In this document: positions 8,811 to 51,131 of the stretch, in pieces | Numbering within the stretch: position 1 is the first letter of the stretch | Layout of the letters: every line of letters starts with the position of its first letter | Virus record (IMG/VR): IMGVR_UViG_3300037264_002389 | Location: 10,545-74,544 of that record | From: a virus | Lineage: Duplodnaviria > Heunggongvirae > Uroviricota > Caudoviricetes | Direction: 5' to 3' (one strand) | DNA length: 64,000 nt | The notes under the pieces: model-generated | Databases searched by the model: none | Seen by the model: only the letters and a program-made list of their open reading frames with translations | Told to the model about the DNA's origin: nothing | Made by a program: the position numbers and the translations under genes

Positions 8811-9584
8811 ATGAAATATATTGAAGGATTGGTTGGATTATGGAGAAGATTTAAGTTATTAGATAACAAATATCTAATGTACTTCTTAATAGCATTAATT
8901 GGCATAATGGCCGCTTATGCATTAAGCCTCAAAACCGATTATAAGATTAAGGTAAAGATGATAGTTCAACCACGTGTGATAGAGACTTTGCCCAGCCATG
9001 TTATCGACTCGACAATTACCATAAGAACACCATTCGGATTTGGATCAGGAGTAGTAGTATCGAAGCACTTTATATTGTCAGCGGCACACCTATTGGCGAC
9101 CCCGCCATGGGAAAATGATGAGGCTGTGGTAGAAGTAGAGATACGTCATCATGAGTTGCAGGTAAATGTATGGACGCGTGCGACGATTGCAAAAGTGGAT
9201 AAAGAATCTGACCTGTTATTGTTATTTGTTCCTATTGAACTACCACATGCTATTAGTACAATAGCTACCAATGATATGATGAATGCTGGCGATAAGTTAT
9301 ATGTGGTTGGTTATCCATATGGCGCATCGGCCCCTAATTGTAGTGATGGTAGATTAACGGCTAAATTTAATAATCATAATGAGGATGCTCCATTCTTATG
9401 GCACTGTAGTGCACCAGCTTTCCCCGGAAATTCTGGTGGCCCAGTGTTTTTAGCGAAAACAGGTGAATTAATTGGTATCTTAGTTCGCGTGCCAATTATA
9501 AGTGAAAATATCTTATCTAATAATGTCTCTTATTTTGTGCCATGGGATAGAATCGTGAACTTCGTTGGTCCACAAGGAAATTAG
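8811..9584 (+). CDS. trypsin-like (S1 family) serine protease with an N-terminal TM segment
   Basis: VSKHFILSAAHLL (His motif), a DLLLL-context Asp, and GNSGGPVF (Ser motif). Confidence 0.7.
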   Translation: MKYIEGLVGLWRRFKLLDNKYLMYFLIALIGIMAAYALSLKTDYKIKVKMIVQPRVIETLPSHVIDSTITIRTPFGFGSGVVVSKHFILSAAHLLATPPWENDEAVVEVEIRHHELQVNVWTRATIAKVDKESDLLLLFVPIELPHAISTIATNDMMNAGDKLYVVGYPYGASAPNCSDGRLTAKFNNHNEDAPFLWHCSAPAFPGNSGGPVFLAKTGELIGILVRVPIISENILSNNVSYFVPWDRIVNFVGPQGN

Positions 9585-42745: not shown

Positions 42746-43372
42746 ATGGAAACAATTGATCTATCAAATCAATCAGATTATAATTATGAACCACATGGTT
42801 CATTATATATTAAGCGCGATCCGGATCAATCCTTCATACCAAAATTTGCCAAATCAGGTGATGTTGGACTCGACCTGCCAGTAAAAATCAATATCGATCA
42901 AGCTAAATTCACGCAGAGTGGTGAAGTTAAGGATCGTCTCAGAAATCCAATGCTATATCCTGATGTTAAGGAATTCGTATATCCCAATGGTACGAGTGAT
43001 GATCCAAATCCATTTTTGTTGGTGCCTCCTATGGGATGGGCCGAGATACCAACAGGCATATCGATTAAATTACCAGATGATGCTTGGGGAATGATTAAAA
43101 GTAGATCATCAACCGGATGGAAAAAGCACCTTGAGGTAATTATCGGAACTATTGATACTGGTTATGTGGGCCTATTGGGAACCCTTGTCTATAATCCAAA
43201 TACCTCGCCTGTAAAAGTATATGAATACGATCCTGTGACTGGGAAAGGGGATTGCTTATCGCAGCTTATTCTGATACCTGTATATCCACTTAAGAAGATG
43301 TTCCTAGTCGATAGACTTCCAGTAACGGTGCGTGGCAAAACTGGCTTTGGGAGCACTAGTCTAGGCACATGA
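42746..43372 (+). CDS. dUTPase / dCTP deaminase family protein
   Basis: VGLDLPV (motif 1-like), IPTGISIKLP, GTIDTGYVGLLG (motif 3, G-x-ID-x-GY-x-G); 208 aa. Confidence 0.7.
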   Translation: METIDLSNQSDYNYEPHGSLYIKRDPDQSFIPKFAKSGDVGLDLPVKINIDQAKFTQSGEVKDRLRNPMLYPDVKEFVYPNGTSDDPNPFLLVPPMGWAEIPTGISIKLPDDAWGMIKSRSSTGWKKHLEVIIGTIDTGYVGLLGTLVYNPNTSPVKVYEYDPVTGKGDCLSQLILIPVYPLKKMFLVDRLPVTVRGKTGFGSTSLGT

Positions 43373-43695: not shown

Positions 43696-44625
43696 ATGAG
43701 AGAAGAATTTAAAGAAGTTCGTTTCACGCCAGCATCATCACAGCGCATTGAACAATGTAACTCAATTATTTCAAATTATCAAGCACAGCATCTGCGATTG
43801 ACATTGCGGCAATTGTATTACCAGATGGTTGTACGGAATTGGTTAGTAAATGAAGAGCGATCATATCGACAATTATCTGGCTTGATTTCTGATGCGCGTT
43901 TAGCTGGGCTAGTTGATTGGGATGCTATTGAAGATCGTGTGCGTGTTCCGCGTATTCCAACCGAATTTACAAATTTGCGTGAATTAACCGAAGCCGCACT
44001 ACAATCTTATCGTTTACCACGTTGGGTTGGTCAGAAGCATTATGTTGAGTTATGGGTAGAGAAGGATGCTCTAGCTGGGGTGTTAATACCGTTGGCTAGG
44101 CATTTTCATGTTACCCTAATGGTCAATCGTGGCTATAGTTCCCAATCTGCCATGTATGAGAGCGCAAATCGTTTTAGAGAAAAATCAGCTATATTAGAGG
44201 ACAATAGTAATCTAATCATATTTTATCTTGGCGACCATGATCCATCTGGCGAGGATATGGTTCGTGATATTCGCGATCGTCTGTTTATGTTTGGTATGGA
44301 TATTGATGTCCGTAAAATTGCTTTAACGATGGAACAAATTGAGCATTATAATCCGCCACCAAACCCGACTAAATTGACTGATTCTAGAGCACCAGCCTAT
44401 ATTGCTATGCATGGCAATAATTCATGGGAAGTTGATGCGCTACCGCCTGAGGTATTAACTGGGCTTATTACCAGTGAGCTTAATGCCGTGATTAATAAGA
44501 GAGATATGAATGTGGTGAAGGCTCTTGAGGAAAGAGATAAAAAGAATTTGCGTGTTGTTGTTGAAGGGCTTCTAAATAGTAAGCCCAAGAAGTTAAGTAA
44601 GCCTAGGAAGCCCAAGAAGAAGTGA
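43696..44625 (+). CDS. Topo VI-A / Spo11-like 'mini-A' protein (5Y-CAP plus Toprim)
   Basis: RQLYYQMV (the R-x-x-YY catalytic tyrosine motif of type IIB cleavage subunits); ELWVEKDAL (Toprim Glu, cf. VVEKE); YLGDHDPSGEDM (the DxDPxG Toprim motif of Spo11/Topo VI-A). Spacing Y to E about 80 aa and E to DxD about 60 aa, as in Topo VI-A. Only 309 aa. Confidence 0.6.
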   Translation: MREEFKEVRFTPASSQRIEQCNSIISNYQAQHLRLTLRQLYYQMVVRNWLVNEERSYRQLSGLISDARLAGLVDWDAIEDRVRVPRIPTEFTNLRELTEAALQSYRLPRWVGQKHYVELWVEKDALAGVLIPLARHFHVTLMVNRGYSSQSAMYESANRFREKSAILEDNSNLIIFYLGDHDPSGEDMVRDIRDRLFMFGMDIDVRKIALTMEQIEHYNPPPNPTKLTDSRAPAYIAMHGNNSWEVDALPPEVLTGLITSELNAVINKRDMNVVKALEERDKKNLRVVVEGLLNSKPKKLSKPRKPKKK

Positions 44626-44691
44626 TACTTACTTGACAAGCTTGATTTATGTGGTAAAATATAGATTGGAGATGTTTGATAACGATACTGA

Positions 44692-44768
44692 CGCAGGCGG
44701 CTAGGGCTGGCTGCTCTGGAGAGGCCCATAACCTTTCAACGAGAGTTCGATTCTCTCGCCTGCTACCA
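44692..44768 (+). ncRNA. tRNA-like RNA element, candidate tRNA-like module of a Y RNA
   Basis: Canonical T-arm gagag-TTCGATT-ctctc, 7-bp acceptor-like stem with a 1:72 mismatch, discriminator A plus CCA. Anticodon-like stem-loop agagg-CCCAUAA-ccttt (CAU). No foldable D-arm and no U8 or U33. Lies immediately upstream of a Ro60 gene. Confidence 0.5.
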
Positions 44769-44772
44769 CAAG

Positions 44773-44990
44773 ACAGGGGACTGCGCGTCATTCCAGCTAC
44801 CGATAATGGCAAAATGACTTCGTAAATCCCCCTGTATTATGAGGAGACAATCGAGAGACTGCGCGTCATTCCAGCAACTTCATACGGAGAAGTCAGGTGT
44901 AAACCTGAGCGAAAAAATGACCACGCGATTCCTCTCGATTTTATACCTACTTGGTCGTAAGATTTAGAGACTGCACGTCACTATTGACTG
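44773..44990 (+). repeat. three iterated stem-loop units sharing the core gactgcgcgtcattccagc
   Basis: Core copies at 44779-44797, 44857-44875 and a degenerate 44968-44985. Each is embedded in flanking inverted repeats (acagggga/tcccctgt; tcgagag/ctctcga; tagaga/tctct). Confidence 0.6.
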
Positions 44991-45028
44991 CGATTTCTCT
45001 TTAATTACGAAGTCTAATTACGACAACC

Positions 45029-46624
45029 ATGACGCAAGATACGAAATACGAACGCAATGGAGAAGATATAATGTCAACTACTACCCAAACAAATCAACTA
45101 GCCCACATAGAGCATTTCACGCCGGAACTTAAAGCGCGAATCCCACAGGCTCTATCAGATATGATCGATGTGTCATTCTCGGCAACTAACCGAGCAACGT
45201 TCTATAACTCCAAGCAGGAACAGGAAGCAGCTGTTGAGAAAATTCACAAGGAATTATTTAACCTGGATAGAGGTCTATATGGACTAAGCCTCCTATTACC
45301 GGGAACGAACGACTATGCGAGACAACTTGGCCTAGGGTTTTTGCTTGATAATCCCCGTGGCGGCAAATTGGCTGTGTTAACAGAAGCACAGGAAGCCAAG
45401 CTAGTAACCTACTTGGCCCAATTCATGCCCCCACAGCGATTATTTAAGCTTTATCGCGAGCTACGGCAGAACCGTGTCAATAACTCTAGGACAAGAAAAC
45501 TCATCCTCCGAACCATCCTAGGTTCACGAAGACTTGAATTATGGGCAGTCAAGTACAGATTTAAAATCAGACAGGCACTTAGCCATGCATGGGGCCGCGC
45601 TACAGCACTGGCAATGAAGGCAATCCTATCCAAAGAAGGGAAAGATAGATCTGAGCAGGAAACCAAAGGATTGGAGAGGAATATCACCAAGTACGCAGCA
45701 GAGCCGACCAAGGCACTAGAGTGTGTTAAATTCATTTTCGGAGTAGAGACTGGACTAACCATCCCGATCCTTAAGTCTTATCATGCCGCCAGAACTGATC
45801 TGTCTAAAGGGAAGGATCTACCAGAAGAACAACTCGAATATTTGCGCAACAGGCTCCATCCAACGGTCAGCCGAGCAGAAGTGCTTAAACTCGCCAAGAG
45901 CACTATGTCCGAAGGCAAGAAAATGGCAGTTCAAAGACAGGCTAAAGAAGCCGGTGTCGAAATTAAATTCGATCCATCAGCAGCTGATCCTGTTAGGCTC
46001 TACATTTATGCCTATGAAATGGGCATGACGAATGAAATTTCCAATGAACTAAAAAAGAAGGCAAAGAAAACAGCAGATATGCTACTCACCAAATACGATA
46101 AGATTGGTATTGTGATTGACAACTCTTTATCAATGCGTGGACATGGTACGCAGAAGAACCGCCCAATTGCAGTTGCTCTTGCTACTCGTGATATGCTTGA
46201 GGCGGCATCAGAAAATGCCACCATTGAATATTGTGGGCAAGAAACTAATAAACTGGTTCAGCCGATTGGTGATACTAGTCTGTCATATGCTTTGGTTAAG
46301 GTTCTCAAGAGTGGCAAATTAGATTCAGTGTTCGTCATTACTGATGGATATGAAAATGCTCCCGCTGGGCGTTTCGCTCAGACGGTAGAGGCTGTTAGGA
46401 AAATCGGAATCGTTACGCCGATCTTCCAGATCGCCCCTGTAATGGCTGCTGAGAAGGGCGGTATTCGGCAGATATCATCGCAAGTTCCGGCTATGCCATT
46501 GAATAAGCCGGAAGCGATAAATGTTGTAATCATCAAATCATTGCTTGTTTCTGATGTCGATAAGGCAATCCTAGGGATGGCTAAGTCTCTATTGCCACAA
46601 CTTGGGGAGAATAGCGATGACTGA
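45029..46624 (+). CDS. rsr: Ro60/Rsr orthologue (TROVE domain plus C-terminal vWA with MIDAS)
   Basis: [22 protein letters not shown] vs human Ro60 [36 protein letters not shown] vs MWGRALRKAIADW; vWA [9 protein letters not shown] (DxSxS) vs [17 protein letters not shown] vs [25 protein letters not shown] vs ADVFIVFTDNETFAG; 531 aa. Confidence 0.78.
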   Translation: [531 protein letters not shown]

Positions 46625-47675
46625 ATTGACTATTAGTGAGATTCTACGTGGGTTAGTGCCCGGTAGATTACAATCGGTTGGTTTGATGCAGGTTATTCCG
46701 TTGACCTGCACGGACCCCGATCTATTTGATCAGGATCTAGTGTCGCCGATGCATAATTATGATGCACAGTCTTCGAATGTGCGAGTCACTAGCGGCACGA
46801 CAGGATATGGTGCAATGCAGTTTAAGAATCCGACTGATAAGGTTTTGCTTGTCCCATGCCATGTTGGTTATGTTACCAAACATGCATCGCAGGACCACGC
46901 TATGGCTACTTCTGGTTTAGTCGCAGCAAAGAAGGAGAAGATATTTGAGAACGCGATGTGTATTCAACAGAGGCAAGGTGGCTTGATTCCACTTGAGCAA
47001 CATAAGATGTTAATCCTCCCATACTCTCTACGCGAATGTGCTTTAGCTAAGAGAAGCAGCAATGAATTTAGTAGACTATGGGAAGACATTGATGACTTTA
47101 ATAAGACACTTGGTATTGCCACGCGAGGTGGGCATCTTGAATACTTCATGGATGCTTTTAAAGAAGAGCTAGATCAATTTGTTGCCGAGTTTGAGATTGT
47201 ACCTGGACAGACTGGCGCGATTATCTTGGTTAATGGTTCGGTGGTAGGTGTTGAGCGAGCACCTTCTCCTAAGTTCTGGTCAGAGGTTTGGGATGCTCTG
47301 ATTAGAGAGTGCTATGGTTCGCTGGCTATTGAAGTTAGCCGTAAAACAGGTAATCGTTTACCGCCTCCAAGCACTAGGACTGCGATTGATCTGCAACAGA
47401 TTAATACCCTTGATGATCTGGAAAAGGAATTGCAACGCGCAGATTGCGACGCCGAGGCGAGGGTTAAGACCATAGTGCGCGATCTATTGGAAGATCCGTT
47501 TAAAACCAAGAACGAAGGTGATCTTAATAGATATAATCTCATGACCCTTGAGAATGGTCAATTTAATGGTCAGGTGGTACGAGAGAGCCAGAGGGTTGTT
47601 TATGCCTCTCTGTTCACCACTAAGTCATGGGCTAAGAATGCTCCGTGGATGAAGGCCAGTAAGTTTGCAGTCTAG
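46602..47675 (+). CDS. hypothetical protein co-operonic with the Ro60 gene
   Basis: 357-aa ORF overlapping the rsr stop by 23 nt. Confidence 0.5.
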   Translation: MGRIAMTELTISEILRGLVPGRLQSVGLMQVIPLTCTDPDLFDQDLVSPMHNYDAQSSNVRVTSGTTGYGAMQFKNPTDKVLLVPCHVGYVTKHASQDHAMATSGLVAAKKEKIFENAMCIQQRQGGLIPLEQHKMLILPYSLRECALAKRSSNEFSRLWEDIDDFNKTLGIATRGGHLEYFMDAFKEELDQFVAEFEIVPGQTGAIILVNGSVVGVERAPSPKFWSEVWDALIRECYGSLAIEVSRKTGNRLPPPSTRTAIDLQQINTLDDLEKELQRADCDAEARVKTIVRDLLEDPFKTKNEGDLNRYNLMTLENGQFNGQVVRESQRVVYASLFTTKSWAKNAPWMKASKFAV

Positions 47676-47939
47676 GAGCTGTTATTGATGGTTTTGTGCG
47701 AATGGCTTGGGTTGTTCTTGGTGGATTCTCATTAGCAATTATTGGTTTTTGTGTAGCGTGTCCGTTCATGTACTTTTTCTGTTTTTTGGAACGCGCACAC
47801 GAGTCAAACGTATGTAAGAAGTGACGCGGAACTAGCGGCGTATAACAGCTAGTGAAGGACCCAGCGAACCGGCTTCGGCCCAAGTAACTCGGTCAACAAG
47901 ACGCCGAAAACAAGGCGTCAGCGCGAAAGGTGGTGCAAG

Positions 47940-48872
47940 ATGTCTAGTGCCCATGTTTCTTCCCTCCAAGACCGAATCTCACAAGCAGCAAAGGTGATGA
48001 AAATCACCGAAGACCAACTATGGGAACACCTATCTGATCTTGGTATTAATCAAAAAGACGACGACGCATTAGCCCTATTGGAAGCTGAAACTACACGCGA
48101 AGGTGATGCACGGAAAGTGTTTTGTGAAAATGCTGTGGCTCCCTATGTTCCAGTAGCACGATTCCTGGCAGGATGGGCAATTCTGAAAGGCCGTAACTAT
48201 CAAGTCGGTGTAGATATGGCTTCCGGACCAGACAAATCGGTAGTTACCATTATTGAATCACTTCGACCCATTAATAGTCTCAAAGACAAAGAACTCATCG
48301 AAAAATACGGACCAGACGCTTCAACCGAAATCTACGACGAACTAAATCGTAGATCCCATGGTAGACCATTCATAATCTTCAATGAAGACAACACAATTGT
48401 TGATGTGGAGAAGACCACCAATCATCTCCGCATCGCTCGTAGAAATGAAACCAAATCAACACATGTAATCTCCACACCAGAAGGTAACAAACCAGTTCGT
48501 GTATATTGTGTTGGTGAATTCCCGATGCTATGGTTAGAAGAAAGCCCAATCCATCCAGAAATTATCTTAGTTAATGGTTACTGTGAAAAATGTGGCAACA
48601 CCTGGGATGGTATCTCAATGGAAGATAGGGTTCTTGTTCGAATTGGTGTAATGGTTGGATTACATTATGCCGATCATAAACTTGAGGTCCACAATTTAAT
48701 CGCTAATATCAAGAAAGCAGGCAATGCCAAGTTCTTGTTGGATATTCCAGATGTTAAATTCAAGTATGATGAATTGAAGGAGCAAAATCAATTGCCGGTC
48801 TTACGCAGACGCACATCAGCAAGTCGGGATGGCAAAGCTGACCCATGTTTCGTGCGTAACCGGTCTTATTAA
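47940..48872 (+). CDS. hypothetical protein
   Basis: 310 aa; preceded by a GC-rich structured 265-nt leader. Confidence 0.5.
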   Translation: MSSAHVSSLQDRISQAAKVMKITEDQLWEHLSDLGINQKDDDALALLEAETTREGDARKVFCENAVAPYVPVARFLAGWAILKGRNYQVGVDMASGPDKSVVTIIESLRPINSLKDKELIEKYGPDASTEIYDELNRRSHGRPFIIFNEDNTIVDVEKTTNHLRIARRNETKSTHVISTPEGNKPVRVYCVGEFPMLWLEESPIHPEIILVNGYCEKCGNTWDGISMEDRVLVRIGVMVGLHYADHKLEVHNLIANIKKAGNAKFLLDIPDVKFKYDELKEQNQLPVLRRRTSASRDGKADPCFVRNRSY

Positions 48873-48927
48873 CCCAAATGGGGATCACCAAGTCGGTGAT
48901 CCCCAACATTTAAATTAGGAGATCAAC

Positions 48928-50031
48928 ATGGATGCCACACAGATAGCCAAAACAGGCTTTAAATTGGAGATGCAACATAAGGGTTTCAAGGCCCAATTAA
49001 TGCGTGCGCAGCGTCTTAAGGATATAGGACGTGCACATGGTTTGCCACCTGGGGTTGCAATACCGATTTGGCCAATCGAATCACTCCCAGGTGTTCCATC
49101 TAGTTGGATCAATGAAGCTGGTAGCTATGTATGTCCTGTAAGTACGAATTATGGCTTGTGGTTTGATTGGACAATGAATGATGGTCTGAATACAGCAGTT
49201 GTCCCTAGTGTTAAGGGTATGAATCCTATTACTGGTCTTAAAATTACAGAACCACGATTAGAGCAATATCTTGAGAAATGTCCGAAGCATAATATTGCAT
49301 TTAAGGATGAACTTTATTGTCCAAAGTGCAAGTATAAATGGCCAACACAATCATATGTTGCTAATCCAAATGTCCTGTGGTGGGATGGATTTAGGCAGGC
49401 TAATGGGACAGTTAGACAATTCTTTTTTACCGATAAGGATGAACGTGATATTGCATCAATTATGATCGGTAAACAAAATGTAGTTCCGGCGTTTGGTTTT
49501 ATGTTCTTTCAACCAAAGCAAAGACGTGAATATCCGAAGGTCAATATGCTGCGTGGTGATGATCTTATTAAGACACAAGGTTTCTATGGGTGGACAGCAG
49601 ATGATCATCCAAATTTAGGTTGCGCTCCAGGAGGAATGTCAGGAGGAATGTCAGCAGGTGGTAATCAGCACATAGGAGTACCAATGGCTTATTACCATGC
49701 AGACAGTCTTTCATATCAATCAGAAGAGAAGACTGCCGCGCCAATACTCGCATCAATGAATACTTCTGCGCCAAGATCAAGATCAATACAAAATCGTTTA
49801 GACAATCCGATTGCCTCAATCCGAGATGTCTCAGTAGGGGCTGGTGCCGAAATCAATCAAAGTTTACAGCGTGATCCATTAAAAATTGAAGACTGGAAAG
49901 ATGAACCAGCAGCAATAATTAGATTATACTTTGTCTTCGAGCGACAATTCCAAGATATTGTTAATAAAGGTGGAATTTTGGATTTAGAGGGTGATAGAGA
50001 GGGATACCTTAAAAATTTACCAGTTGGATGA
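48928..50031 (+). CDS. hypothetical protein with a CPKH...CPKCKYKW zinc ribbon and a GGMSGGMS repeat
   Basis: 367 aa with RBS taggagat. Confidence 0.5.
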   Translation: MDATQIAKTGFKLEMQHKGFKAQLMRAQRLKDIGRAHGLPPGVAIPIWPIESLPGVPSSWINEAGSYVCPVSTNYGLWFDWTMNDGLNTAVVPSVKGMNPITGLKITEPRLEQYLEKCPKHNIAFKDELYCPKCKYKWPTQSYVANPNVLWWDGFRQANGTVRQFFFTDKDERDIASIMIGKQNVVPAFGFMFFQPKQRREYPKVNMLRGDDLIKTQGFYGWTADDHPNLGCAPGGMSGGMSAGGNQHIGVPMAYYHADSLSYQSEEKTAAPILASMNTSAPRSRSIQNRLDNPIASIRDVSVGAGAEINQSLQRDPLKIEDWKDEPAAIIRLYFVFERQFQDIVNKGGILDLEGDREGYLKNLPVG

Positions 50032-50384
50032 TAGAATCGATCATGCTACAAGTTGGCGATTTAGTACGCTTCTCGAATGAGTATCTCAGCGGCATTGGTC
50101 GTGAGATCAATGATGGAAGATCGCGTAGGGGTAAGAATAAGATTATGCGGATTGTCGCTCTTAATAGGACAGAGGTTAAATGGTTCAGATTAACTGATCG
50201 TAGAGCTATATTTAGTCAAGTTGCTACACTTGATGTTACCAGGGAGATTAGGGCCAAATTGCCGATTTGTTTTTTGCCGATAGAAATTAATGTTTGTTTT
50301 TTGAGGTTTTACAAGCGTCCAAAGAAGGAGGATATAAATATTGGAGGATTAATTTCTCGGCCTAGGCGAGTGTTGGATTTGTGA
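50028..50384 (+). CDS. hypothetical protein
   Basis: 118 aa, overlapping the previous stop. Confidence 0.35.
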   Translation: MIESIMLQVGDLVRFSNEYLSGIGREINDGRSRRGKNKIMRIVALNRTEVKWFRLTDRRAIFSQVATLDVTREIRAKLPICFLPIEINVCFLRFYKRPKKEDINIGGLISRPRRVLDL

Positions 50385-50571
50385 TCATGCAGCCATCTGG
50401 TGTTGCATGAATCATTCGGATTAGGAGATGCCATTAGATTATGTCCGGATGAGCAGTTGCGAGACGTTAACTCCTGGTAAGAGTGTGATGCGTCTCGACC
50501 AGAGCCACATTCTATAACACCTTGTGCACGGGTGTGAATGTGGAAAATAGTAGTTTAGTGTGTTGTGAGTG

Positions 50572-50615
50572 TCCCGGTTGACACGTTATACCAGCGTGTC
50601 AACCGGGATTTTAAT
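50572..50615 (+). terminator. strong rho-independent terminator closing the rsr operon
   Basis: 14-bp perfect stem tcccggttgacacg / cgtgtcaaccggga with a 9-nt loop, followed by TTTTAAT. Confidence 0.75.
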
Positions 50616-50627
50616 AAGGCATAAACT

Positions 50628-51131
50628 ATGATCTACCGCGCACTAATGTTCGCCAAAGCAGCCCATAAAGGTCAATTCAGAAAATATACTAACGAACCAT
50701 ACGTAACACACCCAATCAGAGTAGCACACGCAGTAATGCTACATCCTATAGTGGCAGAAGATATGATAGCAGCAGCCTTCCTACATGATGTGCCAGAAGA
50801 TACCGAATTCACAATAGAACAAATCACTAACCTATTTGGACAAGAAGTAGGAACCTTAGTTGACGAACTAACAAACCAAAGCAAAGCCACCGGATTGCCA
50901 AGAGCAGAACGAAAATCCATGGATCGTGAACGCCTCAAAACAGTCAGTAAGAAAGCTAAGATCATTAAAATGCTAGACCGAATTGATAACCTTAATGAAA
51001 TGCATGGAGCAGAATACGACTTCAAGAAACTATATGTCGGTGAGTCATTATGGTTAGCAGATTCTATTGGAGATGCAGACCCAGCTCTGAAGAAAAGATT
51101 AATAACAGCAGCCAATTTACTACATGCTTGA
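50628..51131 (+). CDS. small alarmone hydrolase (SpoT/RelA HD-domain, Mesh1-like)
   Basis: AHKGQFRKYTNEPYVTHP (cf. AHxGQxRxSGEPYIxHP), AAFLHDVPEDT (HD...ED), KMLDRIDNL (cf. KLADRLHNM); 167 aa. Confidence 0.78.
   Translation: MIYRALMFAKAAHKGQFRKYTNEPYVTHPIRVAHAVMLHPIVAEDMIAAAFLHDVPEDTEFTIEQITNLFGQEVGTLVDELTNQSKATGLPRAERKSMDRERLKTVSKKAKIIKMLDRIDNLNEMHGAEYDFKKLYVGESLWLADSIGDADPALKKRLITAANLLHA

What the first reader, a model, noticed from the sequence alone, without database searches (positions are those of the whole stretch)
43696..50615. Candidate phage RNA-surveillance module: mini Topo VI-A, tRNA-like/Y-RNA-like element, Ro60 (Rsr) and a three-gene operon
A Ro60/TROVE+vWA orthologue (45029-46624) is convincingly recognisable by eye against human Ro60. 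It is immediately preceded by a tRNA-like RNA element (perfect T-arm, acceptor-like stem, CCA, CAU anticodon-like loop, no D-arm) and by three iterated stem-loops. Bacterial Y RNAs (the Salmonella YrlA type) are known to carry tRNA-mimicking modules and to be encoded next to rsr. Unusually here, the block starts with a Spo11/Topo VI-A-like mini-A gene, continues into three co-oriented unknown genes (46602-50384), and ends at a strong terminator (50572-50615). A mini-A linked to Ro60 plus Y RNA in a T4-like phage is not something I can place in a described system. The unit could be an RNA quality-control or anti-defence cassette.
Basis: partly seen in the sequence, partly recalled or inferred. 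Interest (0 to 1): 0.8.

Follow-up and report, generated by a model that had tools for sequence, protein, structure and literature searches.

The report
Divergent Ro60–ARPP cassette with Y-like RNAs
This phage carries a self-contained cassette, a very divergent Ro60-type RNA-binding ring protein, an always-linked partner protein of unknown fold (ARPP-1) and a set of small structured RNAs; the same cassette recurs in many bacteria and large phages, often at the end of tRNA gene arrays, and appears to be undescribed in this form.

The parts
43696..44625 (+). Mini-A (stand-alone Topo VI-A-like protein). It is a neighbour, not part of the conserved module.
   Evidence: phrog_6247 at E 4e-89. Motifs RxxYY, E, DxDxxG and WEVDAL read, against the definitions in PMC7671362. 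It co-occurs with the Ro-like gene only in L003 and L017.
44633..44660 (+). Sigma-70-like promoter (TTGACA, 16 nt, TG-TAAAAT) upstream of the RNA array.
   Evidence: Best site in the 8-kb scan, 11 of 12 matches with an extended -10. Comparable TTGACA sites precede the RNA arrays in L001, L093, L013, L015, L016 and L019.
44693..44768 (+). Non-canonical tRNA-like gene (CAU loop, canonical T-arm, short D-like hairpin, UACCA tail).
   Evidence: ARAGORN tRNA-Met(cat). Rfam best is 24.2 bits, below threshold. Cloverleaf MFE -31.5 kcal/mol, z -2.2.
44774..44834 (+). Y-like RNA unit 1: H1, ACU loop, H2, bulge and H3 stem enclosing a small hairpin.
   Evidence: Model R1 at 39.8 bits, E 3.6e-6 (this unit was a seed sequence). 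Fold z -3.0.
44852..44937 (+). Y-like RNA unit 2: the same stem enclosing two hairpins.
   Evidence: Model R1 at 34.5 bits, E 4.6e-5 (this unit was a seed sequence). Fold z -3.1.
44964..45004 (+). Minimal third copy of the stem with no inner module. It may be degenerate, or act as a terminator or attenuator before the protein gene.
   Evidence: Direct repeat 93% identical to unit 2. Model R1 gives only 11.3 bits, E 0.47. Fold z -3.3.
45029..46624 (+). Ro60-like protein: alpha-solenoid ring plus a vWA domain with an intact MIDAS. The probable start is ATG 45071 (517 aa).
46602..47675 (+). ARPP-1 family protein and obligate partner. The probable start is ATG 46617, overlapping the Ro-like stop codon by 8 nt.
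   Evidence: Pfam PF20208 at E 7e-33, 114.6 bits. It lies directly downstream of the Ro-like gene in 81 of 92 loci. The overlap was read. C120 and Q97 are invariant.
47940..50384 (+). g310, g367 and g118: a separate phage gene group of unknown function, not part of the module.
   Evidence: The g310-g367 pair is present without the Ro-like and ARPP genes in L094 and L095, and with them in L004 and L093. g367 has 501 homologues, none with a Pfam domain except one vWA fusion (P0266).
50571..50609 (+). Strong hairpin followed by UUUAAUA. It is terminator-like and ends the g310-g118 group, not the Ro module specifically.
   Evidence: 17 bp, -30.3 kcal/mol, z -7.3.

Best explanation
The region from about 44633 to 47675 is a compact, mobile ribonucleoprotein cassette of the Ro60/Y-RNA kind, in a divergent form.

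A sigma-70-type promoter drives a tRNA-like RNA and two to three Y-like RNAs. Their 5' and 3' ends pair into a conserved three-helix stem with an invariant ACU internal loop and a CAG after the inner helix. The same region encodes a Ro60-fold ring protein with a functional-looking vWA/MIDAS domain and a translationally coupled ARPP-1 protein.

Inferred mechanism: the ring protein binds the conserved stem of the Y-like RNAs on its outer face, as Ro60 binds Y RNA. The variable inner modules are simple hairpins in this phage and tRNA bodies or permuted tRNA mimics in relatives. They would gate the ring or tether it to tRNA-handling factors or substrates. ARPP-1 would be the effector that acts on the captured RNA, possibly docked through the MIDAS site. 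It is a putative enzyme with invariant Cys and Gln and was proposed elsewhere to act on ribose or ADP-ribose moieties.

In many genomes the cassette sits at the 3' end of co-oriented tRNA arrays, so the likely clients are tRNAs. In a phage it would serve tRNA surveillance, repair or protection during conflict with host RNA-targeting defences.

Shown here: the protein fold, the strict gene pairing, the conserved and covarying RNA stem with its position and orientation, and the link to tRNA arrays. Inferred: RNA-protein binding, the role of ARPP-1, the client RNAs and the benefit to the phage.

The stated confidence applies to the reading 'Ro60-type RNP cassette made of the RNAs, the ring protein and ARPP-1'. 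The specific tRNA-surveillance role is less certain, about 0.35.

For: MIDAS residues are invariant in 30 family members.

Gene pairing: ARPP follows the Ro-like gene in 81 of 92 loci. Ten of the other eleven are truncated by contig ends and one is a fragment. The start and stop codons overlap in the window.

RNA: model R1 finds 70 matches (E <= 0.1) in 940 kb searched on both strands, all on the gene strand. In loci that hold the gene's N-terminus with at least 600 nt upstream, 65 of 68 matches lie within 800 nt upstream and 3 lie just after ARPP. Covariation on 68 distinct sequences: 90.8% of cells paired against 72.6% in shuffles and 29-45% when partners are slid; 13 of 15 pairs change on both sides; 196 compensatory cells against 55.

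tRNA bodies inside the stems score 50-62 bits against Rfam tRNA.

tRNA arrays: 427 of 427 upstream and 76 of 76 downstream tRNA calls are co-oriented. Twenty of 72 loci have at least 5 tRNA genes, and up to 40, within 6 kb upstream.

Precedent: Ro60 with adjacent Y RNAs is known in bacteria and phages (PMC4201824, PMC12135203, PMC7824862). ARPP has been described as a conflict-system component with a conserved Cys and Gln (PMC9503650).
Against: No experiment shows that these RNAs accumulate or bind the protein.

No sequence method links the protein to TROVE, so homology rests on a predicted structure.

The canonical Ro60-binding motif GNCGAA is absent, and the Rfam Y_RNA and YrlA models do not match.

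In the window itself there is no tRNA array. The tRNA-like gene lies outside the stems, and the third stem copy is weak (E 0.47).

Only 41 of 72 loci gave a model hit. This is a lower bound, because even seed units in L004 were missed by the filters.

H1 pairing was a selection criterion for the seed alignment, and the larger alignment is fitted to the model.
Confidence: 0.6

Rival explanations
1. Decoy or sensor conflict system. The gene pair is primarily an immune or counter-immune module. The Y-like RNAs display tRNA mimics, and possibly rRNA mimics, as baits for RNA-targeting toxins or RNA-modifying enzymes, and ARPP-1 executes the response. This overlaps with the best explanation but makes the RNAs baits rather than regulators or tethers.
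For: Inner modules are diverse: tRNA bodies, permuted tRNA-like modules, and possibly a 23S-like segment. ARPP occurs in predicted conflict systems. The cassette is patchily distributed across phyla and large phages. It behaves as an insertion between g98 and g310. A resolvase lies near L002.
Against: There are no PADLOC hits and no toxin or effector domain is recognisable. The window's own modules are plain hairpins, not mimics. The 23S resemblance is statistically weak (E = 6).
Confidence: 0.2
2. The repeated stems are cis-acting elements, not trans-acting Y-like RNAs. They would be either processing or leader-trailer structures for the tRNA and tRNA-like genes, or autoregulatory operators or attenuators in the 5' UTR of the Ro-like mRNA.
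For: The units lie between the promoter and the protein gene. In class-A units the stem replaces the acceptor stem of a tRNA body, much like a paired leader and trailer. The third window copy is followed by UUUAAUU and abuts the gene.
Against: Up to 5 copies per locus carry unrelated inner modules. Some lie up to 800 nt upstream, and in L008 and L060 they lie downstream of ARPP. Unpaired nucleotides (ACU, CAG) are invariant across phyla, which suggests protein recognition. In L004 and L093 a terminator-like hairpin separates the RNAs from the gene.
Confidence: 0.12
3. One reading: the whole 43696-50615 block (mini-A, RNAs, Ro60, three downstream genes) is one RNA-surveillance or anti-defence operon.
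For: All genes are co-oriented and closely packed. A single strong hairpin lies at the end of the block.
Against: Mini-A recurs with the Ro-like gene in only one other phage (L017) out of 92 loci. A strong promoter separates mini-A from the RNAs. The g310-g367 pair occurs without the Ro-like and ARPP genes in L094 and L095. A 265-nt gap with its own small ORF separates ARPP from g310.
Confidence: 0.04
4. The Ro60 resemblance is an artefact of structure prediction. The protein would be just an alpha-helical vWA protein acting as a peptide-binding chaperone, as proposed for vWA partners in ARPP systems, and the RNAs would be unrelated tRNA-array debris.
For: Only vWA is seen by sequence. Iyer et al. 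treat the vWA partners of ARG/ARPP systems as chaperones.
Confidence: 0.04

Closest known systems
Bacterial Ro60 (Rsr) with Y RNAs of the YrlA/YrlB type (Chen et al. 2014, PMC4201824)
   Same: Ring plus vWA protein fold. Several small RNA genes lie immediately next to the gene. The RNA 5' and 3' ends form a long conserved stem, and inner modules mimic tRNA, including a permuted arrangement with the T-arm before the D-arm in relatives.
   Different: Pfam TROVE does not recognise the protein, and structural identity is 12-14%. The stem motif is ACU…GCNCGUCAAU·CAG instead of GNCGAAN0-1G. No Rfam Y_RNA or YrlA match. The obligate partner is ARPP-1 rather than the rtcBA/PNPase context. The cassette often lies at the end of tRNA arrays. 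Many units carry an ordinary-order tRNA body whose acceptor stem is replaced by the Y stem.
Phage-encoded Ro60 with Y-RNA-like genes (Thermus phage phiLo phiRo60 with Yrl1 and Yrl2, PMC12135203; mycobacteriophages, CcrColossus, phage G; ROT/TROVE in jumbo phages, PMC7824862)
   Different: Those proteins are recognisable TROVE proteins whose RNAs carry the CGAA motif, and no ARPP partner is reported. Only one of 50,697 GenBank phage records holds this family, an unannotated 462-kb uncultured phage.
ARG-centred conflict systems containing ARPP (Iyer et al. 2022, PMC9503650)
   Same: The ARPP-1 domain with its invariant Cys and Gln. A vWA-containing partner is also mentioned in those systems.
   Different: No ARG, rhodanese-phosphatase, HIRAN, WYL or deacetylase partner appears in the loci examined. 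Here the partner is a Ro60-fold protein plus structured RNAs, a neighbourhood not listed in that paper.
Mini-A type IIB topoisomerase-like proteins of viruses (Takahashi et al. 2020, PMC7671362)
   Same: The gene at 43696-44625 meets every defining motif and is virus-encoded without a B subunit.
   Different: Nothing. It is an ordinary member and is not functionally tied to the Ro module.
tRNA gene arrays of phages and mobile elements
   Same: Relatives carry 5-40 co-oriented tRNA genes immediately upstream of the cassette.
   Different: The window phage has only one tRNA-like gene in 64 kb. A terminal Ro-like/ARPP/Y-like cassette has not, to my knowledge, been noted as part of such arrays, and no paper was found.

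Membership tests
Ro60 / TROVE (Rsr) | TROVE domain detectable by sequence (Pfam PF05731) or sequence similarity to solved Ro60 structures | tested here: not met
   Pfam gives only weak VWA_2, and TROVE matches 0 of 30 family members at E <= 1. phmmer and a profile search against PDB sequences find no Ro60.
Ro60 / TROVE (Rsr) | Helical-repeat ring followed by a vWA domain (the Ro60 fold) | tested here: met
Ro60 / TROVE (Rsr) | MIDAS motif (DxSxS … T … D) in the vWA domain | tested here: met
   D364, S366, S368 and D439 are invariant and T416 is at least 90% conserved in 30 sequences.
Ro60 / TROVE (Rsr) | Binds Y RNA on the outer surface and misfolded RNA ends in the central hole | not testable with these tools
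   Needs EMSA, RIP or a structure.
Y RNA / YrlA | Match to the curated covariance models (to my knowledge Rfam holds Y_RNA and YrlA families) | tested here: not met
   No match at gathering score in the window or in 7 related loci. No match at E <= 10 in 44500-45150 or at E <= 1 in L088:5100-6000.
Y RNA / YrlA | 5' and 3' ends pair into a long conserved stem with an internal loop or bulge, encoded next to the Ro60 gene | tested here: met
   The three-helix stem is supported by covariation. All 70 model hits are co-oriented, and 65 of the 68 in loci with a complete gene start lie within 800 nt upstream.
Y RNA / YrlA | GNCGAAN0-1G (CGAA) motif on the 5' strand | tested here: not met
   The consensus of 29 and of 22 units is CCGGGGACUnGCnCGUCAAUnCAG, with no CGAA.
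Y RNA / YrlA | A tRNA-like module inside at least one Y RNA of the locus | tested here: inconclusive
   Met in relatives: Rfam tRNA scores 50-62 bits inside the stems in L088 and L004. In the window the stems enclose only hairpins, and the tRNA-like gene stands alone upstream.
ARPP-1 (PF20208) | Pfam model above the gathering score, with the conserved Cys and Gln | tested here: met
   114.6 bits against a cutoff of 27. C120 and Q97 are invariant in 31 sequences.
ARPP-1 (PF20208) | Neighbourhood with ARG or rhodanese-phosphatase, or with the HIRAN, WYL or deacetylase partners described for ARPP | tested here: not met
   None of these appear among the called genes of L001, L002, L003 and L093. 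The invariant neighbour is the Ro-like gene.
Mini-A (type IIB topoisomerase A-like) | About 300 aa, RxxY/FY catalytic tyrosine, Toprim E and DxDxxG, C-terminal xWELDAL box, virus-encoded, no B subunit | tested here: met
   309 aa with R38-Q-L-Y41-Y42, E122, D180-H-D182-P-S-G185 and W244-E-V-D-A-L249, read. phrog_6247 at E 4e-89. Definitions from PMC7671362.
Canonical tRNA | Reaches the Rfam tRNA gathering score with a standard D-arm, U33 and an NCCA end | tested here: not met
   Best Rfam score is 24.2 bits (tRNA-Sec model), against 29 for tRNA. The D-loop has 5 nt, the base before the CAU triplet (tRNA position 33) is C, and the tail is UACCA. ARAGORN alone calls it tRNA-Met.

The most novel reading that the evidence does not exclude
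The Ro60-like ring, ARPP-1 and a repertoire of Y-like RNAs form a previously undescribed RNP conflict system of mobile elements. The RNAs would present tRNA mimics, and possibly 23S-rRNA mimics, on a common protein-binding stem. They would act as baits or guides that let the ring and the ARPP-1 enzyme detect, repair or neutralise attacks on translation RNAs, so protecting the tRNA arrays with which the cassette travels.
Probability: 0.2. Interest if true: 0.85.

Novelty: new variant of a known kind. Interest (0 to 1): 0.68.

Why it matters
The function of Ro60 and Y RNAs in bacteria and phages is still poorly understood. The known systems offer few genetic handles beyond PNPase tethering and the rtc operon.

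This clade adds a fixed protein partner, ARPP-1, an orphan fold with enzyme-like invariant residues. It also adds a well-defined RNA recognition stem with invariant unpaired bases, and a natural series of swapped inner modules: hairpins, tRNA bodies and permuted tRNA mimics. It has a recurrent genomic tie to tRNA arrays.

That makes three open questions directly testable in a compact cassette of about 3 kb:
- what a Y-RNA module does;
- what ARPP-1 does;
- why mobile tRNA arrays carry accessory genes.

It also shows that sequence-based annotation misses a whole branch of Ro60-fold proteins: 733 clusters at 50% identity in public data.

Tried and rejected
- Sequence annotation of the 531-aa protein gave nothing beyond weak vWA: Pfam, NCBIfam, PADLOC, PHROGs, and PDB phmmer and profile searches.
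- Megablast of the 6.9-kb block against 50,697 phage records found no match.
- Rfam gave no family for the stems.
- A hand-written structural descriptor scan was dropped. It gave 64 hits upstream, against 21 on the reverse complement and 11 in shuffles.
- Running the covariance model with filters off lost units with long inserts. Window unit 2 fell from 34.5 to 8 bits and the L004 seeds were missed. The hit count of 41 of 72 loci is therefore a lower bound.
- MAFFT could not align the 3' strands of the divergent viral units. I folded each mini-stem instead.
- The profile search of 1.84 billion representatives returned 733 hits. All 150 listed rows were strong matches (E <= 1e-92) and the library carries no annotation, so it could not show a sequence bridge to canonical TROVE.
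- Blastn of the 23S-like module against E. coli gave only a 35-nt match at E 6.
- Burroughs & Aravind 2016 (PMC5062991) is not held, so I could not check whether this neighbourhood is mentioned there.
- I considered whether the window's tRNA-like gene is enclosed by its own Y stem. No complementary flanks are present.

Full report
**What is in the window**

ORF listing shows a co-oriented run on the + strand:
- dUTPase (42746-43372) and a 98-aa gene;
- a 309-aa gene (43696-44625);
- a 400-nt non-coding gap;
- a 531-aa gene (45029-46624);
- a 357-aa gene (46602-47675);
- a 265-nt gap holding a 42-aa hydrophobic ORF;
- genes of 310, 367 and 118 aa (47940-50384);
- a hairpin, then an HD_4/SpoT-like hydrolase gene (50628-51131).

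The window is a tailed phage. It encodes tail sheath, terminase, portal and major head proteins. The same ARPP and g367 proteins occur on a 129-kb contig.

**Mini-A**

The 309-aa protein has no Pfam hit but matches phrog_6247 'DNA topoisomerase' at E 4e-89. Direct reading shows every Mini-A signature defined by Takahashi et al. (PMC7671362): R38xxY41Y42, Toprim E122 and D180xD182xxG185, and the C-terminal W244EVDAL249 box. It is an ordinary Mini-A.

**The 531-aa protein**

Sequence methods see only a sub-threshold vWA match (Pfam VWA_2, E 5e-4). NCBIfam, PADLOC, PHROGs and PDB sequence or profile searches return nothing. None of 30 family members hits TROVE even at E <= 1.

It belongs to a family of roughly 530-aa proteins. 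There are more than 300 hits in the word-indexed search and 733 cluster representatives at E <= 1e-3 in the exhaustive search. The few named members are annotated 'VWA domain-containing protein'.

An AlphaFold model built on 30 homologues is confident (pLDDT 91, pTM 0.86). It shows an all-helical region at residues 30-350 and a vWA domain at 355-490.
- Foldseek against the PDB puts seven Ro60 chains on top (E 1e-9 to 9e-7, full-length alignments). Nothing else is below E 0.01.

The MIDAS residues D364, S366, S368 and D439 are invariant. So this is a Ro60-fold protein, but a remote one.

The likely start is ATG 45071. It has a GGAG Shine-Dalgarno sequence. The identical database protein P0001 has 517 aa. 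Residues 1-21 of the longer form have low pLDDT.

**The partner gene**

The next gene is a clear ARPP-1 protein (PF20208, 114.6 bits). Its ATG at 46617 overlaps the Ro-like TGA stop by 8 nt and is preceded by GGGGAG.

**Comparative neighbourhoods**

I fetched 22 viral loci (IMG/VR contigs of 48-436 kb) and 67 genome loci. The genomes are mostly Pirellulaceae and other Planctomycetota, plus Myxococcota, Saprospiraceae, Yinghuangia and others.

tblastn with the window proteins gave these results:
- ARPP lies directly downstream of the Ro-like gene in 81 of 92 loci. Ten of the other eleven end within about 330 nt of the Ro-like match, and one is a fragment.
- Mini-A recurs only in the window's own contig (L003) and, 2 kb upstream, in L017.
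- g310 and g367 recur only in L003, L004 and L093.

Conversely, g367 belongs to a large phage family (501 hits). Its pairing with g310 is found without the Ro-like and ARPP genes in L094 and L095. There the order is dUTPase, the g98 homologue, a 108-aa gene, g310, g367.

So the Ro-like, ARPP and RNA unit, with mini-A beside it, sits between g98 and g310 in this phage lineage. The g310-g118 group is a separate unit.

**The RNAs**

The gap between mini-A and the Ro-like gene starts with the best promoter-like site of the region: TTGACA, 16 nt, TG-TAAAAT at 44633-44660, 11 of 12 matches. Four elements follow.

(i) A tRNA-like gene lies at 44693-44768. ARAGORN calls it tRNA-Met(CAU). Rfam gives at most 24.2 bits, to the tRNA-Sec model. 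It has a 7-bp acceptor, a canonical T-arm, a 6-bp anticodon-like stem with loop CCCAUAA, a short D-like hairpin and a UACCA tail.

(ii-iv) Three copies of a stem element lie at 44774-44834, 44852-44937 and 44964-45004. They share the repeat GACTGC(G/A)CGTCA.

The same element is obvious upstream of the Ro-like gene in other loci. Its form is:

5' CCGGGG-ACU-n-GCG-C-GUCAAU-nCAG … module … AUUGAC-C-CGC-(4-7 nt)-CCCCGG 3'

That is three helices (H1, H2, H3), an internal loop with invariant ACU, single-base bulges, and a conserved CAG after H3.

On 29 curated stems the three helices are 89.9% paired, against 74% in shuffles and 30-48% when partners are slid. There are 72 double-change cells against 20. 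H1 pairing was a selection criterion for this set; H2 and H3 pairing were not.

A covariance model of the stem (R1) finds only the two window units in the whole 64-kb window. In 86 loci (940 kb, both strands) it finds 70 matches at E <= 0.1, all on the gene strand. In loci that hold the gene's N-terminus with at least 600 nt upstream, 65 of 68 matches end within 800 nt upstream of the Ro-like start (median 256 nt). The other three lie just downstream of ARPP, in L008 and L060.

On the 68 distinct matches, 90.8% of cells pair, 13 of 15 pairs change on both sides, and there are 196 compensatory cells against 55 in shuffles. That alignment is fitted to the model.

Divergent viral units have different H2 and H3 sequences but fold into the same architecture. 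These are in L001, L004, L006, L010, L013-L017 and L019.

The third window copy is weak by score (11.3 bits, E 0.47). It may be a minimal binding site or an attenuator.

**Comparison with known Y RNAs**

Canonical bacterial and phage Y RNAs have a GNCGAAN0-1G (CGAA) motif (PMC4201824; PMC12135203). These do not. Rfam returns no Y_RNA or YrlA match anywhere.

The architecture is nonetheless the same: terminal stem, variable module, encoded next to the Ro60-type gene.

In relatives the modules are tRNA bodies whose acceptor stem is replaced by the Y stem. They score 50-62 bits against Rfam tRNA (for example L088:5140-5203 and L004:5676-5747). Other modules are pairs of hairpins, or a permuted tRNA-like module with the T-arm before the D-arm and a capped acceptor, as I recall the order in YrlA. 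In a few Planctomycetota loci the module is about 130 nt and begins GACGGUCCUAAGGUAGCGA. It resembles 23S rRNA only weakly.

In the window the modules are simple hairpins and the tRNA-like gene is free-standing. Its anticodon-like loop (CCCAUAA) resembles that of the tRNA module inside the L015 unit (CACAUAA).

**tRNA arrays**

ARAGORN on all loci gives 427 tRNA calls upstream and 76 downstream of the Ro-like gene. Every one is co-oriented with it. Twenty of 72 loci have at least 5 tRNA genes, and up to 40, within 6 kb upstream. These pass the Rfam tRNA threshold. The cassette therefore often forms the 3' end of a tRNA array. The window phage has none beyond the tRNA-like gene.

**Interpretation**

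Shown:
- a Ro60-fold protein with an intact MIDAS site;
- an invariably adjacent, translationally coupled ARPP-1;
- a conserved, covarying RNA stem tied to the gene pair in position and strand, with its own promoter;
- a recurrent link to tRNA arrays.

Inferred by analogy with Ro60/Y RNA: the ring binds the stem, and the modules gate or tether it. ARPP-1 would be the effector, tRNAs the likely clients, and in a phage the system would serve tRNA surveillance, repair or protection during conflict.

They are weighed in the structured fields. The neighbourhood data contradict the 7-kb operon.

**Novelty**

Phage and bacterial Ro60 with adjacent tRNA-mimicking Y RNAs is a known kind (PMC4201824, PMC12135203, PMC7824862). 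The following appear to be new:
- a Ro60-fold clade invisible to TROVE models;
- its obligate ARPP-1 partner, a neighbourhood not among those listed for ARPP in PMC9503650;
- the distinct RNA stem family, absent from Rfam;
- the association with tRNA arrays.

Literature searches found no description. One key paper (PMC5062991) could not be read. Only one of 50,697 GenBank phage records carries the protein, and it is unannotated. I class the finding as a new variant of a known kind.

Noticed in passing
L088:5514-5687; L043:1578-1770; L083:511-703: Some Y-like units enclose a module of about 130 nt beginning GAUGACGGUCCUAAGGUAGCGA … GAAUGGCG. From memory this resembles 23S rRNA domain IV. Blastn against E. 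coli genomes gave only a 35-nt, 82% match to a 23S rRNA gene at E = 6.
   Followed up: partly
L088:5698-5830; L002:7791-7935; L038:5767-5913: The gene-proximal Y-like unit in many Planctomycetota loci holds a circularly permuted tRNA-like module. The order is a hairpin, a T-arm, an acceptor stem capped by a loop, then a class-II-like D-arm (GGCGGAGUGGCGAAAUUGGCAAACGC). From memory YrlA has this order, but there is no Rfam YrlA hit.
   Followed up: partly
L018:5700-5840; L024:5705-5850: The most divergent Ro-like loci (31-40% identity) lack the standard stem. They carry instead a tRNA-like RNA with acceptor, T-arm and an encoded CCA. In L024 a long odd insert contains AACUCGUCAGAUUCA, which echoes the ACU…CGUCA motif.
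   Followed up: no
L002/L027, L029, L032, L052, L057, L066, L075, L088 (0-6 kb upstream of the Ro-like gene): Arrays of 19-40 co-oriented tRNA genes lie in chromosomes of Planctomycetota and Myxococcota, ending in the Y-like/Ro-like/ARPP cassette. A resolvase gene lies upstream of the array in L002. Whether these arrays sit on mobile elements was not examined.
   Followed up: partly
window 47696-47824: A 42-aa strongly hydrophobic ORF (MRMAWVVLGGFSLAIIGFCVACPFMYFFCFLERAHESNVCKK) lies in the 265-nt gap between ARPP-1 and g310. It is followed by a small GC hairpin (GACGCCGAAAACAAGGCGUC) just before g310.
   Followed up: no
window 48879-48905: A perfect 12-bp palindromic hairpin (TGGGGATCACC AAG/CTT GGTGATCCCCA) lies between g310 and g367. 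The scan calls it terminator-like on the minus strand.
   Followed up: no
window 50628-51131; L008:10247-10774: An HD_4 / SpoT-like hydrolase (TIGR00691 N-terminal region) lies just after the terminator hairpin. A 46%-identical homologue lies 1.6 kb downstream of ARPP in L008. Iyer et al. mention alarmone-type HD phosphatases in ARPP-containing systems. Only 2 loci show it.
   Followed up: partly
P0266 (homologue of window 48928-50031): One member of the g367 family is fused to a vWA domain (585 aa, PF00092/PF13519). The family otherwise has no Pfam domain and is widespread in large phage contigs.
   Followed up: no
L008:8775-8838 and 8930-8994; L060:7182-7248: In these loci the Y-like units lie downstream of ARPP-1 instead of upstream of the Ro-like gene. 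Their position relative to the genes is therefore flexible while the strand is kept.
   Followed up: partly
L001:1680-3068: The phage-like contig with the closest non-identical Ro-like homologue also carries a reverse transcriptase (RVT_1), a radical SAM gene and split DNA pol III alpha genes near the cassette.
   Followed up: no
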